DNA from: Alkanindiges illinoisensis DSM 15370
Lineage (GTDB): Bacteria; Pseudomonadota; Gammaproteobacteria; Pseudomonadales; Moraxellaceae
NCBI RefSeq assembly: GCF_000619845.1
Contig: NZ_JHUX01000003.1
Span: forward strand, 610,064-642,063
Direction: 5' to 3'
Length of the DNA: 32,000 nt
Of the stretch, positions 6,615 through 30,992 are shown one piece after another. The position numbers and the translations under genes are program-made. Under the pieces are notes generated by a model, which saw nothing but the letters and a program-made list of their open reading frames with translations, searched no databases and was not told the DNA's origin. Positions within the stretch are counted from its first letter, which is position 1; each line of letters begins with the position of its first letter.

Positions 6615-7148
6615 ATGGCTGGTTTAAACCTTGCGACATTAACCAATAAAGATGCATATATTGAAAAAATCCGTGCCGCACTGGAAACCGCAACCGGGCA
6701 ACAAATCCCGGCGGGTACCGTAGAGGTAGGGAAAGTCAAACGGGTGAGTGGGGTAAGCGCGGCACCTGTTACCTTTGCATTTGCTGGTGGTCAGTCATTG
6801 ACCCTTTATGTACGTGCGACTGCCGATGTATTTAAGGCTGAACTCAATGGCAAGGTCATCGTCCTGTCCGGTGATTTCAGTAACGACTGGAAACAAACCT
6901 TTGACGCTGCTGTGACTGGTGTGGCCAAGCTGGTACGTGATGGCCAAAAGGCGAAACAGGCAGAAAATGCACGTCAAAAAGTTAAAATTCCGCGTGCACC
7001 CAGCCAAAGCGTTACGGCAAAAATCAAGGAAGTGCAAGAACAGGAAGCCCAGCTTGATCAGCGTATCACTGAAAAAACTGCCCAGCGTGACCAGTTAAAA
7101 GAAAAACTGGAACAGGCCCGCGCGCAAATTGCAGCAGTGACCCAGTAA
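6615..7148 (+). CDS. Hypothetical protein; paralogue of the central domain of ORF 18114-20063, with a C-terminal coiled coil
   Basis: Shared blocks with 18114-20063: 'Y[IL]EK', 'V.V.K..KR..V...VT[FY]..A.GQS[LV]T[LI]' and 'QRIT[ED]KTA'. The tail is Q/E/K/A-rich. Confidence 0.6.
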   Translation: MAGLNLATLTNKDAYIEKIRAALETATGQQIPAGTVEVGKVKRVSGVSAAPVTFAFAGGQSLTLYVRATADVFKAELNGKVIVLSGDFSNDWKQTFDAAVTGVAKLVRDGQKAKQAENARQKVKIPRAPSQSVTAKIKEVQEQEAQLDQRITEKTAQRDQLKEKLEQARAQIAAVTQ

Positions 7149-15808: not shown

Positions 15809-15838
15809 GCCTTAAATTGGTGAATTTTGGCAACAAGA

Positions 15839-18039: not shown

Positions 18040-18040
18040 C

Positions 18041-18083
18041 TGGAACCTGCCAGAAACCCATCATTTTTAGCCTGACACAATAA
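18041..18083 (+). promoter_or_regulatory. Copy C of the TGGAACC-N24-CACAATAA element
   Basis: TGGAACC 18041-18047 begins 2 nt after the upstream stop. After 24 nt comes CTGACACAATAA 18072-18083, identical to the 12-mer of copy B. ATG 18114 lies 30 nt further on. Confidence 0.5.
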
Positions 18084-18112
18084 GCCCAGTATTAAAAATA
18101 GTGGGCTTTTTT
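18082..18112 (+). terminator. Terminator hairpin overlapping the end of promoter-like copy C
   Basis: AAGCCCA(gta ttaaaaa tag)TGGGCTTtttt: 7-bp outer stem plus an AT inner stem with one mismatch, T-run 18107-18112, directly abutting ATG 18114. Confidence 0.55.
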
Positions 18113-18113
18113 C

Positions 18114-20063
18114 ATGCGCCGGAATATCGATATTTTCACCCAGACTCATGCACCGCATTCCAGCCGGTTTGTGGCAGGTTTTGATTCCATTAACAGCGGG
18201 TCCTGTGCAGTAGGTTTTATTGCTGGCCAATATCGCCGTATCCCGGCGCTTGTGGCTGAAACAGCGACCGATGATGACCAATGGCGAGTTGTTAATCTAA
18301 AAGGCGGTAAGGGCAATGAAGCGCATTTTGATGCGATTGCGGTACTGGGCGCGGTAGATGATCAACAGGCAGCTGATATGACGTTAATGCAGTTTGGCCG
18401 CCTATTTGATTCTGTGGCTATGGATGTGCTGACAACCAATACCAATGGCCTAATGCGCCATTTAGATACCAGCCACTACCACGCTAAACCCAGCACCATT
18501 GCCCCATGGCAACTTAAGGCCATGCAGGACGTGATTTGTGCTGAAAAACCTATGTGGGATGACATCAATCTGGTATCCCATAAAGGCCAAACCGCCAATT
18601 TGCTGCTGGATATGCAACGCCATGATGACCACGATGGGTTGTTATCCCAGTTTGACGGATTGCCAAATTTGCTTGAGCAGCTTGGCGTTGAAGAGCCGGG
18701 CTTTGATGCGCTCATTGTGCAGTATCAATATCTTGAAAAGCTGACCGCACAATTGCATACCGCTATGAAAAATGCGGGCAAGGCTGGTGTGCAAGTGGTG
18801 AATGTCACCGTTAGCAAGCCATTCAAGCGTAACAAAGTGGCGCAAGTTGCGGTGACTTACGATATGGCAGACGGCCAGAGCGTCACGATTCTCTTTCACA
18901 ACCCTGACAGCACACCGTCCAAACTGGCGCCAGCTGATACGCTCATTTCATGGAAAATCCAGATGAATAACCGTGATATTACTGGCGCTATTCAACCGAA
19001 CCAGGGTGAAGGTATTGCCTTACCAGTGCTGGCTGGCCGTATTCTAAAACTGGTCAATCAGAATAGTGACCGGTTTAAGCGCTACCAGGTTAAAAAAACA
19101 GAGCAGGCGCAGGCTTTGGCGGATGCCGAACAGCGTATCACTGATAAAACCGCCCTCGATAAAGCGCTGGACGACGAAATGACTGATTTACAGCAACAGA
19201 TTGATGCAGCCCATGAGCAGGCCAAGCAACAGCAGGAACTGGCTCAGCAAAATAGCGAAGTTCTTAAGGGGCTTATGGCTGATATTGCAGCAACTGCTGA
19301 TCTGGGTGAAGCCACTACCAAAAATTACTTCTTTAAAGAAAAAGAGGTGGATGGCACCAAGTTTCATTTGTCAGTAGACCCATTTGGTGATGGCCTGACG
19401 GTTTGTTTATCAATCATGCCTGCCACTGGCGGCGAGCAGACAGAAGAACAGGCCTTTACGCTAGAACAACTGCAAAACGGTGGTTTTGAGGAAGCTAAGG
19501 CCTATCTAAAAACACTGGATGAAAAGTTTAATCAGGCCGTGGTTGAGGATGATTCGATTCCTGCTGAAGATATTCAGTTTGTGAGAGATATCGAGGCAGG
19601 CACGGTAGACGGTCTGGCCGAAGATAATTTCAAGCGCTTATATGGTATTGCTCAGGAAACCAAAAACAATGGGGATGAGGAAACCGAAGGCGCAGCAGTT
19701 AGTGCTGCAACGGTGATGGCCGAGAAACTTAAACCTGTTGCAACTGAAAAAGGTATCTCGCTTGAGCGCCTAAATACCGCGATTGATGATGAAGATGTAC
19801 TGGAAATCCTAGATTCCATTGAAGCCTTGCAAGCTGCCCTTAATGCAGCACCTGAACCTGAGCCTGAACCAGCTGCTAACCCGGATCAGGAGTTTCTGCA
19901 AAACATCATTGCAGGCACTGTGGACGCCACAACTGTTGATATGGATCACATCATAGAACTGGGCGAGAAGTACCCAGACGATGCAGCATTCAATGCATTG
20001 TATGAGCAGGCTCTCAATGCGATTAACAAGGCTGAGCAAGAAGCCGCCAAGAGTTTGGGTTAA
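18114..20063 (+). CDS. Large acidic coiled-coil protein; candidate packaged accessory protein (DarA-like in size and position, unverified)
   Basis: 649 aa. A GFDSI motif sits 22 aa from the N-terminus, like the leader of 5170-5961. The central domain is paralogous to 6615-7148. It also has a Q/E/A coiled coil, a PEPEPEP linker, and two copies of a [QE]F[VL]..I.AGTVD module. There is no SD, but the start is supported by the box-to-ATG spacing. Confidence 0.6.
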   Translation: MRRNIDIFTQTHAPHSSRFVAGFDSINSGSCAVGFIAGQYRRIPALVAETATDDDQWRVVNLKGGKGNEAHFDAIAVLGAVDDQQAADMTLMQFGRLFDSVAMDVLTTNTNGLMRHLDTSHYHAKPSTIAPWQLKAMQDVICAEKPMWDDINLVSHKGQTANLLLDMQRHDDHDGLLSQFDGLPNLLEQLGVEEPGFDALIVQYQYLEKLTAQLHTAMKNAGKAGVQVVNVTVSKPFKRNKVAQVAVTYDMADGQSVTILFHNPDSTPSKLAPADTLISWKIQMNNRDITGAIQPNQGEGIALPVLAGRILKLVNQNSDRFKRYQVKKTEQAQALADAEQRITDKTALDKALDDEMTDLQQQIDAAHEQAKQQQELAQQNSEVLKGLMADIAATADLGEATTKNYFFKEKEVDGTKFHLSVDPFGDGLTVCLSIMPATGGEQTEEQAFTLEQLQNGGFEEAKAYLKTLDEKFNQAVVEDDSIPAEDIQFVRDIEAGTVDGLAEDNFKRLYGIAQETKNNGDEETEGAAVSAATVMAEKLKPVATEKGISLERLNTAIDDEDVLEILDSIEALQAALNAAPEPEPEPAANPDQEFLQNIIAGTVDATTVDMDHIIELGEKYPDDAAFNALYEQALNAINKAEQEAAKSLG

Positions 20064-20075
20064 GGGGGTAAAACG

Positions 20076-20420
20076 ATGTTGACTGCATTAGAAAAAGCCA
20101 AAGCCCTTAAAGAGTTTAGAGAATTGCGCCTTAAACTGGCTGGTGATGGATTAACCGCGCTGGACAAGGCCAAATCGTTAAAGCGCTTTCGTGAATTGCG
20201 TTTGTTGCTGGGTGGACAGAATCAACCAGAAGCACAGGAACCCGCCAATAATCCGCTGTACCAGTCCATTCTGGAAGGCCGGGAAGTCACACTAGAATTG
20301 CTGGAGCAGGTCAAGGCAGAGGCCGAAAAAGACTTGAACCATCCACAGCTGATTCCCGCTGTTCTTAAACTTAAAGAGCAGGTTGAACCATTACAGGTGC
20401 ATCAGAGTGAGGCGGCTTAA
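20076..20420 (+). CDS. Small helical protein with an internal 24-aa tandem duplication
   Basis: GGGGG lies upstream. LTALEKAKALKEFRELRLKLAG (aa 2-23) and LTALDKAKSLKRFRELRLLLGG (aa 26-47). Its stop abuts the ATG of the next gene. Confidence 0.65.
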   Translation: MLTALEKAKALKEFRELRLKLAGDGLTALDKAKSLKRFRELRLLLGGQNQPEAQEPANNPLYQSILEGREVTLELLEQVKAEAEKDLNHPQLIPAVLKLKEQVEPLQVHQSEAA

Positions 20421-23400
20421 ATGGTGTCGAAAACGGATAAAACCGCCTTAAATCAAATTGACGTCGTTGCAAATCCCATTGCAGCGATTGATGCGATGAT
20501 TGATGCGCTTAAGCACCAGCAGCACGAAAACTACGAGTTTTTAACGGGTGAACCGGTTGCATCCATCCAGTCCGGCCAGATTAAGCCTGATGAGAAGGGT
20601 CATTACATCAAGGCGGCTGTTAACTGGTTTAGGGAGTGGATGGACAAAAATAGCCATGGGCAGGAATTTGAAAATGTGCAGCTAGGAACAATCATTATTG
20701 CGCCTAGTGGCATTAAATCAGCCATGAGTCATAAACCCCACCCAATTGATGTTCAGGCGCTACCGGCCTTGCCTTTGATTATTGAAAAAGCTGTTGTTCT
20801 CAGTAGAACAATGGATGATATGGGCAAACCATTAGAAAATATTGTGGTCGCGGCACCCATCGAAATTGACGCCAAAAAATATTATATGGTTGTTCGTTTA
20901 AGACGGCACACTGAAGATAAAAACGATAGACCCCGCTTTTATACGCAAGCGGTTACTATTGCAGAGGACATAAAAAAAGGACACATCCCTTCAGACCAAG
21001 TGACTGGGCAAAATAAATTGCTTACTCAAAATGGAGGACGTGTCCGTTTATTAAATGTACTGTATAGCGCTCTCAGTGTCAATAATCCAGCGACCAGCAT
21101 TGTTACAGGCCGTACAAACACTGTAAAAACCCCAAAAGGCACCAAACTTGATACGGTTTTTGCACTGGTTGAAGCTGACAATGTAATTGCATCACACGAT
21201 AGCACTGGCGGGACTAATCCTAAATTTCCGCAAGAATTGCAGCCGCGTGACCGTAGCCGCGAAGCCAGCCAGACATGGGTGAAAAAAACAGCGGCCAATC
21301 TGGATCCTGATAGTCTGGGTAAAACCAGCCGTGCAGACACCGGTGCGCCGATTGTTGGTGATGACTTGATTGTTGAATCCGGGAACGGTCGCACCATGGC
21401 GATTCAATTAGCGTACGCACGTGGTACCGCAGAGGAATACCGCGCTTGGCTGGTTGATGAGGCAGAATACTTTGGATTTAAGCCTGAACAGGTTGAAGCC
21501 TTTAAGCAGCCTGTACTGGTGCGTATCCGTAAAACTGAGATTGACCGTGCCGCATTTGCAGTAGAAGCGAACCAGGATGATAAGCTGTCTTTGAGTGCCA
21601 CGGAACGCGCCAAGGCCGATGCTCGCCGTATTGATGACAATATGGCGATGCTATTTAACCCAAGCGAAGATGGGGATTTACTGGCGGCCAGTAACCAGAA
21701 ATTTATACAGGCTTTTTTACAGTCCATTGGTGATACCGAAGCTGCTCAGTATATTGGAACCGATGGCAAGCCAACGCAGGCACTAGTTTTACGCATTAAA
21801 GCAGCGGTATTTAGCAAGGCTTATAAGGATGACCGTCTTTTAGAGATGGTGGCAGACCAGACCAAGCCAGACTTAAAAAATATGCTGAATGCATTAAGTG
21901 TTGCGGCGCCCAAGTTTATTGAGGCCCAAGCCATTAGCCGGTTACAAACCGAAGATTTATCCAGTCAAATTGTTGATGGTATTGAAAGTGCCACTGACCA
22001 AAAGGTTATTGATGCGATTATTGCCGCTGCAAACGTGGTGATGACCGCAAAAAATGACAACCATGACGTGACCGAGTTTGTTAAGCAGCAAGGCCTGTTT
22101 GGTGATTTACCGGATGGTGTGGCAGAGCTGGCCGTATTCCTATCCAAAAATGCCAGCAGTGCCAAAAAGATGAGTCTGTTATTCAAAGCTATGGCCAGCT
22201 TTTTGGAAAAACAGGCAATTGACCAGAGTAACAATAGCCTGTTTGGTGATCCTGAGCCGCTGAGCATGCGAGAGGTCATTCAGCATGCTGTTGGTGTACT
22301 TGAGCAAGAATATGGCGATAAAGCCAATTTAAGCATGTTTGATGATTTAGGCTTTCTAGAGCCTAAGTTATTTGACCAGATTTTTAAGTCCTACGCCCGC
22401 ACTGGGGAATGGACACCAACAAAATATCTGGAGCAAATGGATGCGTTGCGTCGTATTTTCTTTGCAAACGGCTGGGGACGTGAAAGACGTACTAACGGCT
22501 TCATGATCAAGCCTTGTGGTGAACGCAAAGTACGTCTTATTAAATATGCCGATGATGATAAATTTTTTGTCAGCATCGTTGATTTAGATGAAAAATTAAT
22601 CACTGAAATTGTAGGTTGTGATAATAAGGCCATTCCTGAAATCATTGCTGAAATTAATAAATATCTTAATGAAGATCAGCAACTATCATTAGAAAAGTCT
22701 GGCTTTGATTCGGTTGATGGCAATGATCAGATTGCTATGGTGCCTAAGGTTGATGCTAGCAATACATGGATGAATGGGCAAATCATTCCATGGTCAGAAA
22801 ATCCTGAGACTGATTTTGCGCATTCCATGAAATTGCCATCTTCCGGTCAGCTTGGTGATAAGGTTTGTTTTCATGTCTGGGCAAATGAAAGTAAAGAGTC
22901 AAGGGTGAGAATAGATGCATTTATTGCAGATATTAAGTTTAAGACCAGTAAAGTATGGTATGGACTGGCCATGCGCATTGCTGATACGCGATTTGCGACA
23001 CTGATTTACTTACCTAGTGGGACTTTTGATATTTTAACCAGTCATGAAAGTGTAGACGGTTATGATGCCTTACTCACCATGGAAGAGATATGTCGGCATA
23101 ACTGTTTGCGTACTGATATTGATAAGCAAGCCCATGAAGCCGCCACGTCACCTTACAATGATTTGCCAGAGCCGACTGAAGCACAAAAAATTTCAGGGGA
23201 TTATGTGAAGGGCAAGCTATCAATTGCGGGTGTAGATATAGCGATTGAAAATCCGGCTGGTTCTACACGCTCAGGCGTTGACGCCAGTGGAAAGGCTTGG
23301 CAAACCACGATGAAGCATCACTATGGCTACATTGAAAATACCATGGGTGCCGATGGTGATGAGCTGGATGTATTTGTTAAAACTGGTTTGAATGAATATA

Positions 23401-24005: not shown

Positions 24006-24067
24006 AAGCACCAATTACCAAGCCTTAACATAGGTCAATCTAAAAAAATACCTATGTTGAGGTCTGC

Positions 24068-27000
24068 ATGTCTGCGGTGGTTAATTTAAGTCAATTTGTG
24101 GTTACACCCTTAACTGTAATGACTGCTATTGATGCAATGATAGCGGTCTTACAGCAAGCGAATGGTCAGCATATCCCGCTGTATCAGTTTAGCGAAAAGA
24201 TAACGCCTGCTGCCCGCCAGCGTGCCAACAATGAGGCAGTTGCATTACTGCGGGCTGTCCAAAATGACGATGTAAAGCAACTTACACCAGAACAAAAACT
24301 CATTTTATCCCGCTATACCGGCACGGGTGGCAACCTGATTGGCGAAGATGGCTTAAAGGGCAGTGCGTACGAGTACTACACACCAATGCCAGTGGCACAA
24401 GCCATGTGGGACCTATTAAAAGAACAGGGCTTTGCTGGTGGGAACGTATTAGACCCCAGCTCAGGCACTGGTATTTTTGCTGGTTGCGCCCCTGCCGATA
24501 TCCTCATGCACAGTGTTGAACTCTCTGATATATCCGGCAATATCAATAAACTGGTCAATGATAGTGATAAGCATGCAACCACAGTGGCCCCGTTTGAACA
24601 GGTCGCGGCCAGCACTGATGATGAAATTTTTGATGCAGTCATTACCAATGTGCCGTTTGGCACCAATGCCGACCGTGGCAAAAACAAGAACCTGGACAAT
24701 AAATATCAGCGTGACACGCTGGAAGAATATTTTATTAAGCGGTCGCTGGATAAATTGCGTCCCAATGGTTTAGCCGCCTTTATCGTTCCTACCAAAATTT
24801 TAGACAACAGCAGCTTTAAAAAGTTTCGTCAGCTGATTTTATTGCGTGCCGATCTAGTCGGCGCTTACCGCCTGCCCAATAAAGTGTTTGACGCCACTGG
24901 AGCAGATGTCACGACCGATATCATTATTCTTAAAAAATTTAACCAGGATGTCAGCGAGAAAATCACCAACCTGTATGAAAACGGTGGACTGCAAACCCTG
25001 CAAGCCGCACGGGTGCTAGATACCGATATTGTGGCCGGGCATTACTTTAAAACCTATGGCAAGTCTTACGTGCTGGGTGAAACCGTCAAGGGCAAAGGCC
25101 GTTTTGGTGAAGTGGAACGGGTAGTTAATGATGATTCATTGGCCAATATCCTAAAACTGGTGAAGCGTTTTCCTGAATCACGTATTGACTATAACTTGCT
25201 GGAAGTTACCCCCGAATTGACCGAAATTACTTTTAATGACGGTGATATTCGCCGTATCGATGGCGCCACATTCCAGATGAAAAACGGCGAGTGGCAACAG
25301 GTGATTGAACGCTTTAACGTGGATGAATCCTTATTTGCAACGCCATACGCTTTATTGTCTGGCAAAGGGGATTATCCAAAGCTGGTTGAATATGTTGCTT
25401 ATTGCGCGGCCAATGCCAAGCGTCCGCCAGAATGGCTATCTATCTTTACACAAGAGGTCGAAAAGAACGCCGCTACATTTGGCTTCTGGTTATGTGTGTT
25501 GTCAGTACTGGATGCCCTAAAAACTGATAATGGCACATTTCCCTATGCAGAGCGCTATTCGGCACTAACCGCGCAAATGGTCGGTTATGCAGATGCCTAC
25601 CTTAAAAAACGCTACAAACCCAAAAATCAGGATTATAAACGCTATCTGCACACCATCAGCATTGCCTTTGATAGCAACATGCCTGATGGTATTTCACGAT
25701 TCTGGCGCGGTGATACCAGTCAACTGGCAGCCGTACAGCCACTGCATACCCAAGCTGCTTATGAAAATGCGGTGTACCGAGGTATTGCAGAAAACTGGCA
25801 AGTCGATGTAGCTGTCATTCAGCAAAGCAATCCTGATTTTGACCCAATGACTGATGACAATTACTGTATCAATCAGGATGGCAGCAAAGTCACGTTAAAG
25901 CGCGACTATTATGTTGGCAACTATCAGCAGTTTTTAACCCGGATTAACAGCCAGATTGACGCAGCAACGGATCCTGTCATTAAGGAAAAACTGATTCGGC
26001 AGAAACTGGCCGCTGATGCCATGATTCAGGCAATCGATGTTTGTAAGCTCAACTATGACCTAATGGCCAGCACCATACCGATTGAAATCAAGTATCGCTA
26101 CTTTTCAGAATTTATTGATGACAAGGTACTGATTGATGCAGACCATCGGCTAGTTTTGGATGAAAAACCGGATTCTGTTATTGATCTGGTCAAATACCGT
26201 TTAAGCGGCAGTAAGGCACTGGAAACCGGCAAGATGGATGAGGGCAATAAGGCGCTGCGCTACTTTATGCTCAACCGGATTTTTAACTCCATCAACAACA
26301 ACCAGCGTCTTTATGTGAAAACTGAGGACAACATCAACAAGGATACCAAAGCCAAGCTGCTTAAAATCCTGACCGATTATTACAATACCTTGAATGTCAG
26401 TTTTGATGCCTGGTTGAAATCCAATGATGAGTTCATGGCCCAGTTGGATCAGCAATTTAATGCCCCTGAAAACAAGGTTTTTCCGGTGCAACTGGATGAT
26501 TCACCATTAACGATTGATGGCTTTAATCCCAAAAGAGAAGGTTTTATAGCATTAAACGGCTACCAGAATGAGGAAATTCGCCGGCTGTCACGCCATTTTG
26601 CGGGTATGTGTGGTTTTGACGTGGGGCTGGGTAAAACCCTAACCGCGCTGGCTGCCATGCAGAATATGCATAATATTGGCATTAAAACCCGTACGTTTGT
26701 AGTGGTTCCCAACCATACCATCAGTAAGTGGTTTAACGATGTCAAAATGGCTTATGACTACGTAGACGATGTGCTGGTGATTGGCAGTAATCAGGGTAAA
26801 CAGGACGCCGTAGACTCCAAGTTTAATGCAGCAGATTTTGCAGCACTGACCAAGCCGGAAGGGAAGCATTATCGAAAAATCCTGATGACCGTGGATGCAT
26901 TCAATATGATTCCGCTGCGTCAGGCGACCATTGAAACCCATTTTTACCAGACTGAAGGTATTGCCACCGACCGCAAGCAGGACCGCGAAAAGCAGGACGG

Positions 27001-30000
27001 TGATTTAAGTAACCGCATCAAGAAAATCAACAAGTATGAAAGCAAGTTGCCCTATTTTGAGGATATGGGCGTTGATTCACTGGTATTTGATGAAGCCCAG
27101 CTATTCAAGAATGGCAAGGCTGGCGGCGGCCAATATGACCGTATCAAAGGCCTGTCATTGCTGGCCGAGAGTGCTTTATCGGCGCGTGCAATCAGCGCGG
27201 CCATTAAATCCTGGTATATCCGTGGCCGTAACGGTGAATTGAATGATGGCGTAGTCTTGCTGACTGCAACGCCATTTACTAACTCGCCGGTTGAGATTCT
27301 AACCATGCTGTCACTGGCAGTCGGTGATAAGGAAGCCATGCGCGAACTGGCGGGTACTTCCATTGCCAGCGTTGATGATTTCTTAAGTACCTTTGCCAAT
27401 ATTGACCAGATTGAGCAGGAAAATATTGTCGGTGATCTGGTATCAGTTGATACTTTTACGGGCTTTAAAAACGTGCAGTTATTGAAGGATGGCATTCACA
27501 AGATTGCTAATATCCAGACCGCCCGGGAGCGTGGCCTTAAAATTCCTGATGAAGAAAATCATACCGTGGTCATTGACCTGGTGGATGACGACAAGGCAAC
27601 CCTAAACCAGATGAAAGGGTTTTATGCACTGGCCAAGGAAATGATTAACGGCGGTGGTGTGATTGCCGATAAAGATACCTTTGAGGCCTATGAAGCCTAT
27701 AAGGAAATGCTTGGTGAAACGGATGAGCTACTGGCTCACCCGTTCAACCTGATTGCCCGCATGTCTGATGTGATCATGGCCGGTAGTGAAATGGGCCTCA
27801 TGCGTATTGTACCCGTTGATTTTGCCCCTGATCAGCTGGAAGCCGCGCGCAAATTGGCTGACCAGTTTAATGCCAAGAAAATCAGCATTAAGACAACCCG
27901 CCGTTTTCCGGGCGTTGATAGCGAACTAATGACAGTCAAAATGATACAGGACAATCAAGGCGAGCTAATGCCACAGTTTACTATAGGCTGCCGTGTTGAT
28001 CTGGATGATCATAATTCGCGGTTAATCCTAAATGTGGATGATGCTGGCGTCGTCGCGCAGCTGATGGAAATGATTGATAAGGCAGGCCTACAGGTCCAGC
28101 CCAAGCTATCAGCTAAAGTTTCTGCCATGGTTGAAAACTATAAGGTTGAGCAGAGTACGCCAAAGCATCAGGGCCATGCCAAACAGCTTATTTTCTGCGA
28201 CAACCTGGCGATGCAGCATGTAATCAAGCGGGCATTGGTTGCTTACTGTGGGGTGAAATCCAGCCAGATTGCCATTATCAATGCGCAAACTCTACCAGAT
28301 GGCAGCAAGGGCAGTCCTGATACAGAGCACATGCAGGAAGTGCAGGACAAGTTTGCCAGCAATGAGTTTACAACCGTCATTGCCAATAAAAAGGCTGAAA
28401 CCGGTATTGATTTGCAGATTGGTACACAGGCCATCCACCACTTAACAACGGGCTGGACACCAGACAGCTTACAGCAGCGTAATGGCCGTGGCGTACGTCA
28501 GGGCAATAAGCAGTCCAGCGTGGCAATTTACCATTACAATGCCAATGGCACCTTTGATGAGTATAAGCAGCGCCTGATTGCTGGCAAGGCTGACTGGATT
28601 GACCAGTTGATGCAAAAGGATTCTGTTGTATCTGGAACCCTGAATGTGAGCCAGGAACTCAGTAAACAGGACTATGAGGACCTGATTAATGCTGATAGCC
28701 CTGAACAAATTGCTGCACTATTGCAGGCAAAATCTATTCGGGAACAGGCCGAGCGTGCTGCACTGGTTGCCTCCAGAACCCGCTTGCTATATGACAACAT
28801 GATCAAGGCCAAGAAACGCCCTAAACCCAGCATTGAAGGGCAAGTACGTCAGATTATGGAGGTCGATGCCAAACGGCTAGGGGAACTGATCAAGAAGCGC
28901 GACAAGGCGGCCAAGCCTGAGGTTATTCAGCGTTACACCGACCAGATCAACCAGATTGCCCAGCGCTATGATGGCTGGTTCGATGGTGAGCTGACCAGTG
29001 ATATGGTGATTAAGGGCATTGAGCGAAAACGGCAATATAACCGTAGCCCAAGTTTTAGTGAATATGATATTTACCGTGAAATGCGGACTGGAAGCCATGA
29101 AATGTCACGCTGGATCCAGACCAATGCCGACACCCTGACCAATGATGTATTTAACCGTGCCCGTAGTGTGGTGAGCACAGCAGATAACATGATTCGTGCC
29201 ACTGAAGAATCATTCTTGAATTATCAGGATAATGGTTTTAGTGAGGCTGATAAACAGGCCATTTTAACCGGAGAGGCCGTTTTAGATGATTTGGGCGTGC
29301 TTTGGTATGCAGGCGAGTACGTTAAGGCCATTAAAGAAAATGGCAAAACCGTTTATGGCTATGTGAAGATTGCTGAACTTAGTGATTATGGCTTTAAATT
29401 TGGTTTTATCGGTAAGGAAATCGGTAGAACTGATACCTGCCAGAAACTAAGCCCGGATGATAAGGCCGCTGCCATTGAATATATGGTGGCCGAGGATATG
29501 GCCGAGTGTAACACCAAAGAAATTTTTGATATCAGTGTTGCTAAGCCATTTTACGCCAGTGTTTTTCCAGAAATTTACACCATTTTGGCGGAACGTCTGG
29601 CCGGTGCGCTTCAAGAATGGAATGAGCGGACTACCCAGTATTTTGCCCGCAATCTGGTGCACCGTGCGACTAAGCGGCGCTATTGGGCTGAAGAGTTTTT
29701 ACCAGAGCTAAGGTATGATAATCCCGATATTGTTAAATCTTATAACCTGGTATTTGATATTGAGGCATTTGAAGTTAATCCGCTCAATCGCAGGCCTATG
29801 GCGGTAATCCGTAATAAGAACCTAAGGCTTTATCAAAACATCCCAATAACCCATGCCTCAGATTCTGAATTTTTTGAAAATGAACTGCTGCCTTATCTGG
29901 AAGGTGAGGCTATAGAAGTAAAAATGGATGTAGACACAGCATTTAATTTATTGAAAAAACTGCTAGGAACATCACGCCTGTTTGATATGGCATTAACCCG

Positions 30001-30484
30001 GGCCGGTTTTACCACGGCTGAATTTCAACAGTTGTATGTTGACGGGATTAGTAAGGCTGATATTCCGCAATATGTTAAAAAAGCAATTGATCAGGAAATT
30101 GGGCACGTCATCAATAACCTTGATGAAGTGGTTGGCTGGTTTATGGTGAGCGAGGGTTATAGACATATCCGGCAACGGATTAAAATCCTGCCCGAACCAG
30201 GTGCACCTGAAGCAGCGGCGGCTGATCTGATGGAGCAGGCCAAGCGGGTAGCGATTAAAAATACCAAGGATGTACCCGTCATTGGCTTAAAATCAGTGGT
30301 GATCGGCAGGGATGGTAATAAGCTGTATGAAAACAAGGAATCATTAAAGGCTACGGTGGACTATGCCTACTGGGCAAAACGTCCAAGTATGTGGATTATT
30401 GACCTGGAATCGTTTGCCAAGCTGATTCAACAGCCGTGGTACGATTCAACCCAGATTGAAATTGTTGAGGCAAAATACAGATGA
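24068..30484 (+). CDS. Giant N6-adenine DNA methyltransferase + SF2 (SNF2/DEAH-like) helicase fusion, P1 DarB-like
   Basis: 2,138 aa; GAGG lies upstream. MTase motif I is VLDPSSGTG (24446-24472) and motif IV is ITNVPFG (24641-24661). The helicase Walker A is GLGKT (26624-26638), with DEAQ (27089-27100), LLTATP (~27257-27274) and motif VI QQRNGRGVRQG (28472-28504). Confidence 0.8.
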   Translation: MSAVVNLSQFVVTPLTVMTAIDAMIAVLQQANGQHIPLYQFSEKITPAARQRANNEAVALLRAVQNDDVKQLTPEQKLILSRYTGTGGNLIGEDGLKGSAYEYYTPMPVAQAMWDLLKEQGFAGGNVLDPSSGTGIFAGCAPADILMHSVELSDISGNINKLVNDSDKHATTVAPFEQVAASTDDEIFDAVITNVPFGTNADRGKNKNLDNKYQRDTLEEYFIKRSLDKLRPNGLAAFIVPTKILDNSSFKKFRQLILLRADLVGAYRLPNKVFDATGADVTTDIIILKKFNQDVSEKITNLYENGGLQTLQAARVLDTDIVAGHYFKTYGKSYVLGETVKGKGRFGEVERVVNDDSLANILKLVKRFPESRIDYNLLEVTPELTEITFNDGDIRRIDGATFQMKNGEWQQVIERFNVDESLFATPYALLSGKGDYPKLVEYVAYCAANAKRPPEWLSIFTQEVEKNAATFGFWLCVLSVLDALKTDNGTFPYAERYSALTAQMVGYADAYLKKRYKPKNQDYKRYLHTISIAFDSNMPDGISRFWRGDTSQLAAVQPLHTQAAYENAVYRGIAENWQVDVAVIQQSNPDFDPMTDDNYCINQDGSKVTLKRDYYVGNYQQFLTRINSQIDAATDPVIKEKLIRQKLAADAMIQAIDVCKLNYDLMASTIPIEIKYRYFSEFIDDKVLIDADHRLVLDEKPDSVIDLVKYRLSGSKALETGKMDEGNKALRYFMLNRIFNSINNNQRLYVKTEDNINKDTKAKLLKILTDYYNTLNVSFDAWLKSNDEFMAQLDQQFNAPENKVFPVQLDDSPLTIDGFNPKREGFIALNGYQNEEIRRLSRHFAGMCGFDVGLGKTLTALAAMQNMHNIGIKTRTFVVVPNHTISKWFNDVKMAYDYVDDVLVIGSNQGKQDAVDSKFNAADFAALTKPEGKHYRKILMTVDAFNMIPLRQATIETHFYQTEGIATDRKQDREKQDGDLSNRIKKINKYESKLPYFEDMGVDSLVFDEAQLFKNGKAGGGQYDRIKGLSLLAESALSARAISAAIKSWYIRGRNGELNDGVVLLTATPFTNSPVEILTMLSLAVGDKEAMRELAGTSIASVDDFLSTFANIDQIEQENIVGDLVSVDTFTGFKNVQLLKDGIHKIANIQTARERGLKIPDEENHTVVIDLVDDDKATLNQMKGFYALAKEMINGGGVIADKDTFEAYEAYKEMLGETDELLAHPFNLIARMSDVIMAGSEMGLMRIVPVDFAPDQLEAARKLADQFNAKKISIKTTRRFPGVDSELMTVKMIQDNQGELMPQFTIGCRVDLDDHNSRLILNVDDAGVVAQLMEMIDKAGLQVQPKLSAKVSAMVENYKVEQSTPKHQGHAKQLIFCDNLAMQHVIKRALVAYCGVKSSQIAIINAQTLPDGSKGSPDTEHMQEVQDKFASNEFTTVIANKKAETGIDLQIGTQAIHHLTTGWTPDSLQQRNGRGVRQGNKQSSVAIYHYNANGTFDEYKQRLIAGKADWIDQLMQKDSVVSGTLNVSQELSKQDYEDLINADSPEQIAALLQAKSIREQAERAALVASRTRLLYDNMIKAKKRPKPSIEGQVRQIMEVDAKRLGELIKKRDKAAKPEVIQRYTDQINQIAQRYDGWFDGELTSDMVIKGIERKRQYNRSPSFSEYDIYREMRTGSHEMSRWIQTNADTLTNDVFNRARSVVSTADNMIRATEESFLNYQDNGFSEADKQAILTGEAVLDDLGVLWYAGEYVKAIKENGKTVYGYVKIAELSDYGFKFGFIGKEIGRTDTCQKLSPDDKAAAIEYMVAEDMAECNTKEIFDISVAKPFYASVFPEIYTILAERLAGALQEWNERTTQYFARNLVHRATKRRYWAEEFLPELRYDNPDIVKSYNLVFDIEAFEVNPLNRRPMAVIRNKNLRLYQNIPITHASDSEFFENELLPYLEGEAIEVKMDVDTAFNLLKKLLGTSRLFDMALTRAGFTTAEFQQLYVDGISKADIPQYVKKAIDQEIGHVINNLDEVVGWFMVSEGYRHIRQRIKILPEPGAPEAAAADLMEQAKRVAIKNTKDVPVIGLKSVVIGRDGNKLYENKESLKATVDYAYWAKRPSMWIIDLESFAKLIQQPWYDSTQIEIVEAKYR
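24305..24940 (+). other. SAM-dependent N6-adenine methyltransferase domain
   Basis: 'YYTPMPVAQAMWDLL...VLDPSSGTGIFA...DAVITNVPFG...NGLAAFIVP'. The order of motif I then motif IV, with the NxPF catalytic variant, is typical of amino-MTases. The boundaries are approximate. Confidence 0.7.
26552..28600 (+). other. SF2 helicase core (two RecA-like lobes separated by a ~280-aa insert)
   Basis: N-lobe ~26552-27337 (GLGKT, DEAQ, TATP). C-lobe ~28181-28600 (KQLIFCDN..., TGIDLQ, QQRNGRGVRQG). Confidence 0.7.
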
Positions 30485-30942
30485 GCCGCATTACCTACCT
30501 AATCCCTGATCGTGCGGCACTGGCTGAGGTGACGGCTGGCATTAAAGCCAGCCTGACCGATAAGGGAATTGAACCAGCCAATATGCCTAAGGTCATTACT
30601 GATACATTTTTTCGTAATGCGGCGCGGCTAAGTGCCCGTGATATTGATTTCTGGCTAGGCTTTGGCGGGTATTTGCCAGCGGTTGAATGGGTTATTGCCC
30701 AGCAAAGCGGGGAAGGCGAAGAAGAGTTTTATGCCCGCACCCAATATCCTAAAAATGTGGTTGAGGCCTACAGTGTACCTGAGGATGATTTAGCAACCCT
30801 TGCAGCTGCTGATCTGTATATGCAGCTTCACCGGGCTACCACACCAGTTGCAACAACAGTCTGGCCATTAAATGAAGAGGAAGGCCAATATATTGACCTT
30901 GCCCAGTTTGAGGCGCGGCTCAATGGAACCGTGCGCCTTTAG
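30481..30942 (+). CDS. Hypothetical protein translationally coupled to the MTase-helicase gene
   Basis: 153 aa, with an ATGA stop/start overlap at 30481-30484. I see no recognisable motif. Confidence 0.6.
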   Translation: MSRITYLIPDRAALAEVTAGIKASLTDKGIEPANMPKVITDTFFRNAARLSARDIDFWLGFGGYLPAVEWVIAQQSGEGEEEFYARTQYPKNVVEAYSVPEDDLATLAAADLYMQLHRATTPVATTVWPLNEEEGQYIDLAQFEARLNGTVRL

Positions 30943-30966
30943 CACAATGTGAGCGAGTAATAATAA
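30924..30966 (+). promoter_or_regulatory. Copy H of the TGGAACC-N24-box element
   Basis: TGGAACC 30924-30930 (within the last codons of 30481-30942), 24 nt, then GAGTAATAATAA 30955-30966. ATG 30993 lies 26 nt further on. Confidence 0.4.
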
Positions 30967-30992
30967 CCCTGTGCTTAAGCTCAGGGTTTTTT
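30965..30992 (+). terminator. Terminator hairpin overlapping the end of promoter-like copy H
   Basis: AACCCTG-tgcttaagct-CAGGGTTtttt: 7-bp stem 30965-30971/30982-30988, with the T-run running straight into ATG 30993. Confidence 0.6.

What the first reader, a model, noticed from the sequence alone, without database searches (positions are those of the whole stretch)
18114..30942. ~13 kb Dar-like module of giant, probably capsid-delivered effector proteins in one transcription unit
Five tightly packed + strand genes lie between a promoter-like element/terminator pair at 18041-18112 and another at 30924-30992. Their gaps are 12 nt, 0 nt, 62 nt and a 4-nt overlap.
- A 649-aa coiled-coil protein.
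- A 114-aa repeat protein.
- A 1,194-aa polyvalent protein with a ParB/DdrB-type domain.
- A 2,138-aa MTase+helicase.
- A 153-aa protein.

The established precedent is phage P1. It packages DarA (about the same size as the 649-aa protein), DdrB (which has a ParB-superfamily domain) and DarB (a ~2,250-aa MTase+helicase) into the head and injects them to block type I restriction.

Here the cast is similar but differs in three ways. It is contiguous, it sits immediately after the portal gene, and it has an added pyrophosphatase-like domain. Two of the proteins carry the head-specific FDS[IV] motif. Together these features suggest an injected anti-defence cassette whose composition differs from the described P1 system.
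Basis: partly seen in the sequence, partly recalled or inferred. Interest (0 to 1): 0.8.

Follow-up and report, generated by a model that had tools for sequence, protein, structure and literature searches.

The report
P1-type Dar anti-restriction cassette, fused form
A P1-like prophage of a Moraxellaceae bacterium carries, as one gene block, relatives of the proteins that phage P1 packs into its head and injects to block host restriction; it is a rearranged version of a known system, not a new kind.

Summary
Five + strand ORFs lie at exactly the stated coordinates and gaps. Pfam confirms DarA_N, then LPD3 + ddrB-ParB + InPase, then N6-MTase + SNF2 helicase.

The Dar reading is supported. The gene order equals P1's two Dar operons (darA-ddrA-ddrB and darB-ulx) joined head to tail. 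An Hdf-like gene lies elsewhere in the window, at 6615-7148.

- DdrB-like is 42% identical to P1 DdrB over 405 aa.
- DarB-like shares P1 DarB's NVPFG, DPSxGTG and GLGKT motifs.
- The 114-aa protein is not DdrA.
- The 153-aa protein is only a probable distant Ulx relative.

FDS[IV] occurs 10 times against 0.2 expected. It is found only in homologues of P1 gp23, gp21, DarA and DdrB, and it matches the mapped P1 capsid cleavage site (LE|SV) in form and position. In DdrB-like proteins it sits at domain borders. I infer that the prohead protease cuts there.

The claimed differences from P1 are real but not unique. At least 543 IMG/VR loci carry this cassette in shuffled forms, and deposited phage Rb1 has a contiguous InPase-DarA...DarB-Ulx set. 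One gene separates the portal gene from the module.

Packaging and anti-restriction activity are inferred, not shown. Verdict: new variant of a known kind, moderate interest.

The parts
18040..18048 (+). CTGGAACCT, one copy of the strand-specific YTGGAACY motif found upstream of late operon starts. It is a candidate late-promoter or activator element for the module.
   Evidence: 10 copies on the + strand and 0 on the - strand. Four of them lie in the 6% of the window that is intergenic (3490, 6545, 10316, 18041); the motif holds the same position in L004, L015, L017 and L083. Function is untested.
18082..18112 (+). Hairpin (18082-18108) plus T-run, ending 1 nt before the DarA-like ATG. It resembles an intrinsic terminator and forms the left boundary of the unit.
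   Evidence: dG -13.2 kcal/mol; sequence; an analogous hairpin plus U-run before the darA-like gene in L004.
18114..20063 (+). DarA-like internal head protein, 649 aa. It comprises a family-specific N-terminal extension, a DarA_N domain (aa 197-318), a coiled-coil helix (about aa 320-400) and a divergent C-terminal half. There is no DarA_C domain.
   Evidence: DarA_N 4.7e-28. P1 DarA structure 9ukm_I, 1.7e-12, aa 245-372 against 132-265; 30% identity to P1 DarA; 60% identity to Acinetobacter phage ABMM1 gp28 over aa 7-364. NCBIfam DarA equivalog scores 52 bits against a cut-off of 350.
18180..18191 (+). FDSI site 1 in the DarA-like protein (aa 23-26). Candidate prohead-protease cleavage site (FD|S).
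   Evidence: Conserved as GFDS[VM] in L004 and L001.
18405..18416 (+). FDSV site 2 in the DarA-like protein (aa 98-101). Candidate propeptide cleavage site, comparable with removal of about 69 N-terminal residues from P1 DarA.
   Evidence: P1 DarA processing is described in PMC12810830. The site is not conserved at this column in L004 or L001; they carry their second FDS site at about aa 72 instead.
20076..20420 (+). 114-aa all-helical protein in the ddrA position. Its N-terminal half is two tandem basic helices (LEKAKALKEFRELRLKL, twice). A linker follows, then a C-terminal 3-helix module that in ABMM1-type phages forms the C-terminal end of DarA itself.
   Evidence: 53% identity over 59 aa to the C-terminal end of ABMM1 DarA-like; 32 homologues, with N-terminal residues 1-47 nearly invariant; an HMM of the repeat finds the small gene at this position in most loci that have one (11 distinct sequences at E <= 0.02; the L090 gene scores only 0.18). 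AF2 model is all-helical, pLDDT 74; no similarity to P1 DdrA.
20421..24005 (+). DdrB-like polyvalent protein, 1194 aa. It comprises an N-terminal tag, LPD3 (aa 64-167), a ddrB-ParB domain (aa 239-371, with the GNGRT motif), a conserved helical region to about aa 640, an uncharacterised stretch, InPase (aa 920-1054, with the DGDELD motif) and a tail.
   Evidence: Pfam; 42% identity over 405 aa to P1 DdrB, E 2e-91; the InPase region matches the portal-fused InPase of PDB 9b41_L at 1.8e-24. DGDELD motif.
20484..20510 (+). AIDAMIDAL, the N-terminal amphipathic motif of the DdrB-like protein (aa 22-30). Candidate capsid-targeting tag.
   Evidence: exact AIDAMI is shared with the DarB-like N-terminus. 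P1 DdrB aa 10-22 (SIETLIELLKNL) fits the same pattern; all 48 N-terminal matches to a post hoc regex fall on DdrB-like, DarB-like or helicase-only cargo proteins.
22704..22715 (+). FDSV site at DdrB-like aa 762. It lies between the ParB/helical part and the InPase part.
   Evidence: sites at domain borders in homologues.
23604..23615 (+). FDSI site at DdrB-like aa 1062, 8 residues after the end of the InPase domain. It is part of a conserved TW[ST]xFDS motif.
   Evidence: the same motif follows InPase in L025 (818), L072 (666), L074 (836) and L085 (667).
23925..23936 (+). FDSI site at DdrB-like aa 1169, near the C-terminus.
24019..24066 (+). Long hairpin without a U-run in the 62-nt ddrB-darB gap. 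Its 3' arm contains the GAGG Shine-Dalgarno sequence of the DarB-like gene. It may be a translational control or RNA-processing site at the seam between the two P1-type operons.
   Evidence: dG -19.4 kcal/mol. L017 also has a hairpin, plus a TTGGAAC motif, in this gap. Function is untested.
24068..30484 (+). DarB-like protein, 2138 aa. It comprises an N-terminal tag, a gamma-type N6-adenine MTase (motif I LDPSSGTG at aa 129, motif IV NVPFG at aa 194), an SF2/SNF2 helicase (GLGKT at aa 853, DEAQ at aa 1008, Helicase_C at aa 1415-1479) and about 550 aa of C-terminal sequence with no assignment.
   Evidence: P1 DarB 29% identity over 55% of the length; Rb1 32% over 81%. NVPFG, DPSxGTG and GLGKT are conserved with P1 DarB. 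DEAQ is conserved in the sub-family; only partial, sub-threshold hits to defence-system models.
24125..24151 (+). AIDAMIAVL, the N-terminal motif of the DarB-like protein (aa 20-28). Candidate capsid-targeting tag. It lies in the region equivalent to the 30-aa capsid-targeting signal mapped experimentally in P1 DarB.
   Evidence: The P1 capsid-targeting signal is described in PMC9024508.
30481..30942 (+). 153-aa helical protein in the ulx position, with a 4-nt overlap onto the DarB-like gene. Probably a distant Ulx relative.
   Evidence: its only PHROG hit is phrog_1629 'Ulx-like', E 0.015. BLASTP of family members against the Rb1 Ulx-like protein gives 1e-5 to 1e-2; hhalign E 0.0027, probability 11%; it is always the last gene of the cassette. 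Not confirmed (Foldseek) or (profile search).
30924..30931 (+). ATGGAACC, a copy of the TGGAACY motif inside the 3' end of the 153-aa gene and upstream of the PmgG-like gene.
30965..30992 (+). Hairpin (30965-30988) plus T-run, abutting the ATG of the PmgG-like gene. It forms the right boundary of the unit.
   Evidence: dG -12.8; the same layout is seen in L004, L015 and L017.
6615..7148 (+). Hdf-like protein, 177 aa, DarA_N-only. It is the expected partner of DarA on the inner capsid surface and is encoded 11 kb upstream of the module.
   Evidence: phrog_1620 'Hdf-like antirestriction', 8.4e-35. DarA_N 1.3e-7 (31.9 bits, cut-off 27); weak BLASTP match to P1 Hdf, 5e-5.

Best explanation
**What it is.** This is a P1-type Dar (defence against restriction) cassette in a P1-like myophage prophage. 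The host is probably Alkanindiges illinoisensis (Moraxellaceae). The cassette is P1's darA-ddrA-ddrB and darB-ulx operons joined in one late transcription unit:
- DarA-like protein.
- A small tandem-helix protein.
- A DdrB-like polyvalent protein (LPD3-ParB-InPase).
- A DarB-like MTase+helicase.
- An Ulx-like protein.

**Proposed mechanism.** Homology is shown. The individual steps are inferred.
1. Late in infection the block is transcribed from its own YTGGAACY-marked start.
2. The DarA-like protein, together with the separately encoded Hdf-like protein, binds the inner capsid surface, as the P1 DarA-Hdf pairs do.
3. The large cargo proteins are recruited into the prohead through a shared N-terminal amphipathic tag (AIDAMI...). 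The 114-aa protein may act as an adaptor.
4. The prohead protease cuts at FD|S sites. This removes the DarA-like N-terminal propeptide and cuts the DdrB-like polyprotein at domain borders, giving a ParB-containing fragment (aa 1-763), an InPase fragment (aa 764-1063) and short tails. This would replace the self-processing metallopeptidase domain of P1 DdrB.
5. The proteins leave the head with the DNA at infection and protect it in cis from host restriction or related defences.
6. The DarB-like protein would act by methylation and/or translocase activity. The ParB and InPase domains would act on DNA or on nucleotide or pyrophosphate substrates.
For: **Homology.**
- DarA_N 4.7e-28, ddrB-ParB 6e-35, InPase 1.5e-46, MTase plus SNF2.
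- DdrB-like is 42% identical to P1 DdrB over 405 aa, E 2e-91.
- The DarA-like protein matches the solved in-capsid P1 DarA chain 9ukm_I at 1.7e-12.
- The DarB-like protein matches P1 DarB and shares its NVPFG, DPSxGTG and GLGKT motifs.
- Hdf-like: phrog_1620 at 8e-35.

**Synteny and context.**
- Protein sizes of 649-114-1194-2138-153 aa compare with P1's 639-121-995 and 2255-146.
- The neighbours are P1-type structural genes: portal, sheath, tube, and homologues of PmgG, gp23 and gp21.

**Evidence for packaging and processing.**
- FDS[IV] occurs 10 times against 0.2 expected. It is found only in homologues of P1 gp23, gp21, DarA and DdrB. Three of those four P1 proteins are known to be cleaved in the head (PMC9024508, PMC5512222, PMC12810830).
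- P1 gp23 is cut at LE|SV after residue 120. The window's capsid homologue has GFD|SI at residue 117, counted from its probable start M45.
- Across 85 related loci there are 190 sites against 21 expected. The density is 2.97 per 1000 aa in DarA-like proteins, 1.08 in DdrB-like, 0.08 elsewhere, and 0 in portal and PmgG. In DdrB-like proteins the sites lie at domain borders.
- An InPase domain is physically attached to a portal protein in PDB 9b41_L.
- The DdrB-like and DarB-like proteins share an N-terminal motif, in the region where the P1 DarB targeting signal was mapped.
Against: - There are no virion proteomics or phenotype data for this phage or any close relative.
- The 114-aa protein has no similarity to DdrA.
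- The Ulx link is weak: E 0.015, hhalign probability 11%, no Foldseek hit, and Ulx was not recovered by a profile search of 1.84 billion proteins.
- There is no DarA_C domain, and the NCBIfam DarA equivalog cut-off is not reached.
- No homologue of the P1 Pro protease was found in the window.
- The DarB-like protein has no FDS site, so its packaging rests on homology and a short motif only.
- Its helicase motif II is DEAQ, not DExH.
- The N-terminal tag was defined post hoc from short helical sequences.
- The target of protection (type I R-M or other defences) is unknown in Moraxellaceae.
- The prophage may be inactive.
Confidence: 0.8

Rival explanations
1. The proteins are head-internal, but their main role is structural. 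They would determine head size, stabilise the capsid, or organise and eject the DNA. Any anti-defence effect would be secondary or absent in this lineage.
For: - In P1, DarA and Hdf are head-size determinants and bind both capsid and DNA at penton-hexon junctions (PMC12810830; PMC9024508 table).
- The commonest relatives keep only a DarA-like protein and a short ParB-only DdrB, 47 of about 85 loci.
Against: - The enzymatic cargo (MTase+helicase, ParB, InPase; a RES domain in L004) is hard to explain structurally.
- Its rapid shuffling between relatives is typical of conflict genes.
- Catalytic motifs are retained.
Confidence: 0.1
2. The DarB-like MTase+helicase is not packaged. It would act in the producing cell, or in the lysogen, as a phage methyltransferase that modifies progeny DNA. 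It would sit next to the Dar genes by accident of recombination.
For: - It has no FDS[IV] site.
- A 62-nt gap with its own strong hairpin separates it from the ddrB-like gene.
- In L017 and L083 a TGGAAC-type motif precedes it, which suggests partly independent expression.
Against: - It is a homologue of P1 DarB, which is packaged at about 40 copies per virion through an N-terminal signal (PMC9024508).
- It shares the exact AIDAMI N-terminal motif with the DdrB-like protein.
- The L015 relative encodes a DdrB::DarB fusion with an FDS site at the junction.
- The protein is on the late strand, among head and tail genes.
Confidence: 0.07
3. The block is a prophage-borne host defence system that protects the lysogen, for example a BREX-, DISARM- or type I/ISP-like MTase-helicase module.
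For: PADLOC and NCBIfam give partial hits of the 2138-aa protein to MTase_I, MAD2, DrmD, PglX and ZorD models.
Against: - All hits are domain-level and far below the curated cut-offs (for example 40 bits against 610-720).
- None of the other four proteins hits any defence model.
- No nuclease or specificity subunit is present.
- The closest full-length relatives are DarB proteins of P1-like phages.
- The block is embedded in late structural operons on the same strand.
Confidence: 0.03

Closest known systems
Phage P1 Dar system (Hdf, DarA, DdrA, DdrB, Ulx, DarB)
   Same: - There are homologues of DarA (N domain plus helix), Hdf, DdrB (ParB plus helical core, 42% identity) and DarB (MTase+SNF2, same variant motifs).
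- The internal gene order is the same, with similar protein sizes.
- The phage backbone is P1-type.
- The processing-site logic (hydrophobic-acidic|Ser) resembles the mapped P1 gp23 site.
   Different: - There is one contiguous unit instead of two operons about 12 kb apart.
- hdf is unlinked.
- There is no DarA_C domain.
- DdrA is replaced by an unrelated tandem-helix protein.
- The DdrB-like protein gains LPD3 and InPase and lacks the C-terminal metallopeptidase region.
- The Ulx relationship is only marginal.
- Helicase motif II is DEAQ.
- The host family is Moraxellaceae.
Phage-type polyvalent proteins (Iyer, Burroughs, Anand, de Souza, Aravind 2017, PMC5512222)
   Same: - The 1194-aa protein combines LPD3, DdrB-like ParB and the hairpin-less phage InPase clade.
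- All three domains were defined in that survey and predicted there to be packaged and injected.
- The protein lies in a late-gene context next to virion genes.
   Different: - That work proposes self-processing by an embedded metallopeptidase (MPTase). This protein has none.
- Instead it carries putative prohead-protease sites at its domain borders.
- I did not find that idea in the passages of that paper that I read.
Xanthomonas phage Rb1 (PQ569993) gp56-gp59
   Same: It has a contiguous block of InPase+DarA_N (1221 aa), a 637-aa protein, a DarB-like protein (2238 aa, the best full-length match at 32% identity over 81%) and a clear Ulx-like protein (phrog_1629, 7e-23).
   Different: - InPase is fused to DarA rather than to DdrB.
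- No ddrB-ParB domain was detected.
- The record annotates these genes generically ('internal head protein', 'chromatin remodeling complex ATPase').
Acinetobacter phage vB_AbaM_ABMM1 (OQ471969) and Acinetobacter prophages (e.g. A. modestus NZ_BMDV01000002)
   Same: - The slot is the same: portal, a gene of about 200 aa, DarA-like, (small protein), DdrB-like, ..., PmgG-like.
- Identity is 60-70%.
- They carry the same FDS sites and the same N-terminal tag.
   Different: - ABMM1 has only a DarA-like protein (with the small protein's C-terminal module fused on) and a ParB-only DdrB of 483 aa.
- A. modestus has LPD3-ParB-InPase followed by a RES-domain protein and a helicase without an MTase, in place of DarB and Ulx.
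T4 internal proteins (IPI-III) and their capsid-targeting sequence
   Same: An N-terminal address directs proteins into the prohead. The prohead protease then processes them, and the anti-restriction proteins are injected.
   Different: There is no sequence relationship. T4 uses a short cleaved targeting sequence on small proteins, not multi-domain giants.

Membership tests
P1 Dar system | DarA homologue (DarA_N capsid-binding domain) | tested here: met
   Pfam DarA_N 4.7e-28, 97.9 bits against a cut-off of 27. PDB 9ukm_I 'Defense against restriction protein A' at 1.7e-12.
P1 Dar system | Full-length DarA equivalence (DarA_C domain; NCBIfam anti_RE_DarA equivalog) | tested here: not met
   No DarA_C hit at E <= 0.01, although P1 DarA has it. 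NF052326 scores 52.3 bits against a cut-off of 350.
P1 Dar system | Hdf homologue present in the genome | tested here: met
   Window 6615-7148: phrog_1620 'Hdf-like antirestriction' 8.4e-35; DarA_N 31.9 bits against a cut-off of 27. It is unlinked to the module.
P1 Dar system | DdrB homologue (DdrB-type ParB domain plus following helical region) | tested here: met
   BLASTP against P1 DdrB gives 42% identity over 405 aa, E 2e-91. Pfam ddrB-ParB 6.4e-35. The C-terminal region of P1 DdrB (predicted MPTase) has no counterpart.
P1 Dar system | DarB homologue (about 2,200-aa N6-MTase + SF2 helicase) | tested here: met
   tblastn against P1 DarB gives 29% identity over 55% of the query, E 1e-58. phrog_11801 scores 1371 bits and phrog_10089 'DarB-like' 2.4e-85. 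NVPFG, DPSxGTG and GLGKT are shared.
P1 Dar system | DdrA homologue | tested here: not met
   There is no BLASTP alignment. There is no hit to phrog_1855 'DdrA-like' even at E <= 5. Only the position and size match (114 against 121 aa).
P1 Dar system | Ulx homologue downstream of darB | tested here: inconclusive
   The position and size match (153 against 146 aa). The sole PHROG hit is phrog_1629, E 0.015. BLASTP against the Rb1 Ulx-like protein gives 1e-5. hhalign gives E 0.0027 but probability 11%. There is no BLASTP match to P1 Ulx, no Foldseek match, and Ulx is not retrieved by the profile search.
P1 Dar system | Proteins are incorporated into the capsid and released at infection | not testable with these tools
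   Only indirect support is available: FD|S sites shared with the capsid protein homologue, and an N-terminal motif in the region of the P1 DarB targeting signal.
P1 Dar system | Protects incoming DNA from type I restriction | not testable with these tools
   No phenotype data exist for this phage or its close relatives. The ABMM1 paper reports none.
Phage polyvalent proteins (Iyer et al. 2017) | Two or more conflict-related effector domains in one polypeptide, in a late or virion gene context | tested here: met
   LPD3 + ddrB-ParB + InPase in the 1194-aa protein. It lies between the portal and PmgG-like genes. Definitions are taken from PMC5512222.
Phage polyvalent proteins (Iyer et al. 2017) | Embedded peptidase (MPTase) for self-processing | tested here: not met
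   No peptidase family is found in Pfam, PHROGs or NCBIfam for the 1194-aa protein. This feature is common in the class but not obligatory.
Anti-phage defence systems (type I R-M, BREX, DISARM, MADS, Zorya) | Full-length match to a system component above the curated threshold, with partner genes | tested here: not met
   There are only partial domain hits, 21-41 bits against cut-offs of 400-1100. PADLOC gives no hit for the other four proteins.

The most novel reading that the evidence does not exclude
The cassette may be a modular 'address and cut' cargo system. Any effector domain could be loaded into the head by a short N-terminal amphipathic tag ([DN]P[LI]xx[IL]Dx[ML][IV]xxL). A second, tandem-helix tag occurs on the 114-aa protein and possibly at the termini of some cargo proteins in other phages.

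The prohead protease would then release the cargo as separate enzymes at FD|S sites placed at every domain border. This would replace the self-cleaving peptidase of P1 DdrB.

Such a system would explain how ParB, InPase, LPD3, RES, helicase and MTase modules are swapped so freely between related phages. It would also give a sequence rule for predicting, and for engineering, the injected proteins of this phage group.
Probability: 0.35. Interest if true: 0.6.

Novelty: new variant of a known kind. Interest (0 to 1): 0.42.

Why it matters
The Dar system has been studied experimentally only in P1 and its close enterobacterial relatives. This locus and at least 543 related viral contigs show that the same machinery is widespread in Moraxellaceae (Acinetobacter-type) P1-like prophages. 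There it forms a hypervariable slot between the portal-region genes and the pmgG-like gene.

That matters in three ways.
- It helps predict which phages can overcome restriction barriers in Acinetobacter, which is relevant to phage therapy and to gene transfer.
- It helps read the injected proteome from sequence. The FD|S rule and the N-terminal tag are testable predictions.
- It may allow foreign proteins to be targeted into capsids, as has already been done with the P1 DarB signal.

It does not reveal a new kind of system.

Tried and rejected
- **Nucleotide matches.** Megablast of the 13-kb block against 50,697 phage records and 72,556 plasmids gave nothing. The phage itself is not in those collections.
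- **Exact-protein look-ups.** Look-ups of the 649-aa protein and of P0014 found no contig. The host assignment to Alkanindiges illinoisensis therefore rests on one 100% identical 114-aa protein entry, whose longest contig is 1.78 Mb.
- **114-aa protein as DdrA.** Rejected. P1 DdrA is also not similar to P1 DarA.
- **114-aa protein against the window's own DarA-like C-terminus.** No significant BLASTP match. The similarity is to the ABMM1-type C-terminus.
- **153-aa protein as Ulx.**
  - The structural route failed. The AF2 model was good (pLDDT 83), but Foldseek against BFVD gave nothing better than E 0.87.
  - A profile search of 1.84 billion representatives found only 14 family members and no Ulx.
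- **192-aa gene after the portal as the P1 Pro protease.** Rejected. It is weakly Tub-like, though not significantly. No protease was identified in the window.
- **Generic sigma-70 and terminator consensus scan.** Hits were not above the shuffled expectation, and the scan missed both flanking hairpins because of their loops and mismatches.
- **TGGAAC motif as a sigma-54 promoter.** Rejected on spacing, by my own reading.
- **Defence-system reading.** Rejected.
- **Rfam and tRNA scans.** Nothing found.
- **Capsid and Hdf homologues against the PDB by sequence.** No usable hit.
- **Tandem-repeat HMM on cargo termini.** It gave only 5-7 bit full-length matches. None occurred in 10 shuffles, but the hits are individually non-significant. 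I kept this as a lead only.
- **ABMM1 paper.** It has no usable virion protein identifications for the DarA-like homologue.

Full report
**1. The observation**

The window carries five + strand ORFs at exactly the reported coordinates: 18114-20063 (649 aa), 20076-20420 (114 aa), 20421-24005 (1194 aa), 24068-30484 (2138 aa) and 30481-30942 (153 aa). The gaps are 12, 0 and 62 nt, followed by a 4-nt overlap.

- 649-aa protein: DarA_N at aa 197-318, 4.7e-28.
- 1194-aa protein: LPD3 (aa 64-167), ddrB-ParB (aa 239-371, 6e-35) and InPase (aa 920-1054, 1.5e-46).
- 2138-aa protein: N6_Mtase/Eco57I (aa 99-299), SNF2/ResIII (aa 828-1017) and Helicase_C (aa 1415-1479).
- The two small proteins have no Pfam family.

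PHROGs agree, including 'released from the phage upon host infection' and 'DarB-like antirestriction'.

**2. Context**

The window is a P1-like myophage. It encodes:
- a major capsid homologue at 71-1975 (phrog_1014, the family of P1 gp23);
- sheath at 3856-5154;
- a gp21 homologue at 5170-5961 (phrog_1053);
- a baseplate protein at 7834-9288;
- tube at 10386-11036;
- portal at 15827-17461 (phrog_1497, 1.7e-166);
- a PmgG-like protein at 30993-31805.

The module does not follow the portal gene directly. A 192-aa gene (17461-18039, phrog_7274) lies between them. It is not the P1 Pro protease.

No nucleotide-level match exists among deposited phages or plasmids. The 114-aa protein is 100% identical to a hypothetical protein of Alkanindiges illinoisensis whose longest contig is 1.78 Mb (lineage Moraxellaceae). 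This fits the window's G+C content of about 46% and suggests an integrated prophage. I could not retrieve that locus directly.

**3. Comparison with P1**

In P1 the Dar genes form two operons: (lydA lydB) hdf-darA(639 aa)-ddrA(121)-ddrB(995)-hxr, and darB(2255)-ulx(146)-lxc. The second operon is divergent from the portal gene prt. The window's 649-114-1194-2138-153 series is those two operons joined in the same internal order.

Pairwise tests gave the following.

| Window protein | P1 counterpart | Result |
|---|---|---|
| DarA-like | DarA | 30% identity over the N domain and helix, 1e-15; solved in-capsid chain 9ukm_I, 1.7e-12 |
| DdrB-like | DdrB | 42% identity over 405 aa, 2e-91, covering ParB plus the helical region |
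| DarB-like | DarB | 29% identity over 55% of the query |
| 114-aa protein | DdrA | no alignment |
| 153-aa protein | Ulx | no direct alignment |

The DarB-like protein shares the unusual motif IV NVPFG, motif I (L/V)(D/E)PSxGTG and helicase motif GLGKT with P1 DarB.

For the 153-aa protein the indirect evidence is as follows.
- Its only hit among 38,880 PHROGs is 'Ulx-like anti-restriction', at E 0.015.
- It and its family members match the C-terminal half of the clear Ulx homologue of Xanthomonas phage Rb1 at 1e-5 to 1e-2.
- A profile-profile comparison gives E 0.0027 but only 11% probability.
- A good AF2 model found nothing in BFVD.
- A profile search of 1.84 billion proteins found only 14 family members and no Ulx.

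I treat it as a probable but unproven distant Ulx relative.

**4. The FDS[IV] motif**

FDS[IV] occurs 10 times in about 10,000 residues against 0.2 expected, and never in the other five frames. It occurs only in four proteins:
- the gp23 homologue (3 sites);
- the gp21 homologue (2 sites);
- the DarA-like protein (aa 23 and 98);
- the DdrB-like protein (aa 762, 1062 and 1169).

In P1, gp23, DarA and DdrB are all proteolytically processed during head maturation (PMC9024508, PMC12810830, PMC5512222). The mapped gp23 site is KAMLE|SVAAEM after residue 120. That is a hydrophobic-acidic|Ser-Val pattern of the same form as FD|S[IV]. The window's capsid homologue has GFD|SI at residue 161. This becomes residue 117 if translation starts at the Met that aligns with the P1 start.

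The motif is conserved in the same proteins of Acinetobacter relatives. Across 85 related loci there are 190 FDS[IVAML] sites against 21 expected. Densities per 1000 aa are:
- 2.97 in DarA-like proteins;
- 1.08 in DdrB-like proteins;
- 0.96 in DarA+DdrB fusions;
- 0.15 in DarB-like proteins;
- 0.08 elsewhere;
- none in the portal, PmgG-like, 114-aa or 153-aa families.

In DdrB-like proteins the sites lie at domain borders. In the 942-aa type they are at residue 187, before the ParB core, and at 645, after it. A conserved TW[ST]xFDS motif follows directly after InPase (window 1062; L025 818; L072 666; L074 836).

My inference is that FD|S is the prohead-protease site. The DdrB-like polyprotein would then be cut inside the head into a ParB-containing fragment, an InPase fragment and short tails. 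P1 DdrB is thought to process itself through a C-terminal metallopeptidase, which this protein lacks. Cleavage itself has not been shown.

**5. A candidate address tag**

The DdrB-like and DarB-like proteins share the exact hexapeptide AIDAMI at residues 22-27 and 20-25. The same amphipathic pattern appears near residues 12-35 of other proteins.
- DdrB-like proteins whose next domain differs (LPD3, another N-domain, or ParB directly).
- DarB-like proteins (L083, L017).
- The 1236-aa helicase-only proteins of other prophages.

P1 DdrB (SIETLIELLKNL) fits the pattern as well. All 48 N-terminal matches to a regex fall on such cargo proteins. The regex was written after seeing the sequences, so this shows consistency and is not an independent test.

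In P1, the first 30 residues of DarB suffice to direct a reporter into capsids (PMC9024508).

The 114-aa protein has two nearly invariant N-terminal helices, a disordered linker and a 3-helix C-terminal module. In ABMM1-type phages that C-terminal module is the C-terminal end of DarA itself (53% identity). An HMM of its tandem helices finds the small gene at this position in most relatives that have one. It also gives weak full-length matches at the termini of some DdrB-like and DarB-like proteins. An adaptor role is plausible but speculative.

**6. How unusual is the arrangement?**

It is not unique. A scan of IMG/VR with the DdrB core found at least 543 related loci. The census of the best 80 gave the following.
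- 47 loci: DarA-like (650 aa) plus a ParB-only DdrB (483-503 aa), the ABMM1 type.
- About a dozen loci: DarA-like, a small protein, then DdrBcore+InPase with or without LPD3.
- Several loci: single DarA+DdrB fusion proteins (1255-1783 aa, some with InPase) followed by a DarB-like protein.
- L083 and L017: the same five-gene set as the window (L017 came).

Other relatives add to the picture.
- The Acinetobacter modestus prophage replaces DarB and Ulx with a RES-domain protein and a helicase without an MTase.
- L015 carries a large in-frame deletion. It fuses the ddrB-like gene to the two ends of darB, with an FDS site at the junction.
- The deposited phage Rb1 has a contiguous block of InPase+DarA_N, a 637-aa protein, a DarB-like protein and Ulx-like.

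The domains themselves, and the prediction that such proteins are packaged and injected, were published in 2017 (PMC5512222). An InPase domain fused to a portal protein has a solved structure (9b41_L).

**7. Regulatory features**

Both ends of the block carry a hairpin plus T-run that ends just before the next ATG: 18082-18112 (dG -13.2) and 30965-30992 (dG -12.8). Each is preceded by a YTGGAACY motif. That motif occurs 10 times on the + strand and never on the - strand. It lies upstream of the operon starts at 3490, 6545, 10316 and 18041, with a further copy at 30925.

The order motif, hairpin, U-run, ATG recurs in L004, L015, L017 and L083, with different hairpin sequences. The 62-nt gap before the DarB-like gene folds into a -19.4 kcal/mol hairpin that includes its GAGG ribosome-binding site.

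These features support a separately controlled late unit. Their function is untested, and the generic promoter and terminator scan was uninformative.

**8. Rivals**

- **Purely structural role.** This is possible for the DarA-like and Hdf-like proteins but does not explain the shuffled enzymatic cargo.
- **Non-packaged DarB-like MTase.** It has no FDS site and its own upstream hairpin. Against this stand its homology to the packaged P1 DarB, the shared N-terminal motif and the L015 fusion.
- **Prophage-borne defence system.** Rejected. Only partial domain hits appear, far below the curated thresholds, and the other four proteins have none.

**9. Verdict**

Both the observation and the Dar-like interpretation stand. 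The locus is a rearranged, domain-swapped variant of the P1 Dar system, of a type that is abundant but uncharacterised in Moraxellaceae prophages.

The points that go beyond existing descriptions are:
- the FD|S cleavage rule at domain borders;
- the shared N-terminal tag;
- the replacement of DdrA by a tandem-helix protein.

These are predictions from sequence comparison, not demonstrated facts.

- Interest: 0.42.
- Novelty: new variant of a known kind.
- Confidence that this is a Dar-homologous capsid-cargo cassette: about 0.8.
- Confidence that it specifically counters type I restriction: considerably lower.

Noticed in passing
window 6615-7148 (+): An Hdf-like, DarA_N-only protein is encoded 11 kb upstream of the module, behind its own TGGAAC motif. 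In P1, hdf lies directly upstream of darA.
   Followed up: yes
window 71-1975 and 5170-5961 (+): The capsid (gp23) and gp21 homologues carry the other five FDS[IV] sites. The annotated GTG start of the capsid ORF is probably 44 codons too early; the Met at nt 203 aligns with the P1 start. The P1 gp21 sequence has an acidic middle and a very basic C-terminus, and it and its window homologue carry protease-type sites (two FDS sites in the window protein). It might therefore be the scaffold or core protein that P1 is said to lack.
   Followed up: partly
window 3489-3496, 6544-6551, 10315-10322, 18040-18047, 30924-30931; L004, L015, L017, L083: The YTGGAACY motif is strictly strand-specific (10 on +, 0 on -) and sits upstream of late operons. 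At two sites it is followed by a hairpin plus U-run that abuts the start codon, with no Shine-Dalgarno sequence. A promoter followed by a terminator and then the gene suggests antitermination-type late control, or a transcription start inside the stem.
   Followed up: partly
window 24019-24066: A strong hairpin (-19.4 kcal/mol) without a U-run lies at the seam between the ddrB-like and darB-like genes. It pairs with the GAGG ribosome-binding site of the DarB-like gene.
   Followed up: partly
window 3562-3849 and 12384-12818 (+): Two small ORFs both match the N-terminal 90 residues of sheath-related PHROGs (phrog_5283, phrog_1036). They are separate from the main sheath gene (3856-5154), which lacks that part. 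ABMM1 also annotates a separate 93-aa 'tail sheath protein'.
   Followed up: no
window 12818-14305 and 14298-15212 (+): Two proteins of 495 and 304 aa among the tail genes have no hit in Pfam, PHROGs or NCBIfam. ABMM1 has a 3451-aa tail-fibre-like protein at the equivalent place.
   Followed up: no
L004 13461-14837 and 14921-18631 (A. modestus prophage): The slot that holds DarB and Ulx here is filled in A. modestus by a HEPN_RES_NTD1+RES (NAD-targeting toxin type) protein and a 1236-aa helicase without an MTase. The helicase carries the N-terminal tag. A RES domain as packaged phage cargo would be notable.
   Followed up: partly
L015 8100-10004; protein P0055: These are deletion derivatives. 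L015 fuses the DdrB core, an FDS site, DarB residues of about 17-127 and the last ~50 residues of DarB. P0055 (131 aa) joins the tandem-helix N-terminus of the 114-aa family, a DarB N-terminal fragment and the C-terminus of the 153-aa family. The cassette appears prone to internal in-frame deletions.
   Followed up: partly
window 24068-30484, aa 1008: Helicase motif II is DEAQ rather than DEAH or DEGH. The change is conserved in the closest relatives (L083, L017, L097), so it is not a one-off inactivating mutation.
   Followed up: partly
protein P0052 (2279 aa): A giant protein contains ten matched stretches of the C-terminal ~40 residues of the 153-aa family.
   Followed up: no
window 9897-10280 (-) and the 653-nt gap 5962-6614: This is the only sizeable - strand ORF (127 aa, no family) in an otherwise all + strand window. 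It lies next to one of the two long intergenic regions. In ABMM1 the comparable positions hold antirepressor and toxin-antitoxin morons.
   Followed up: no
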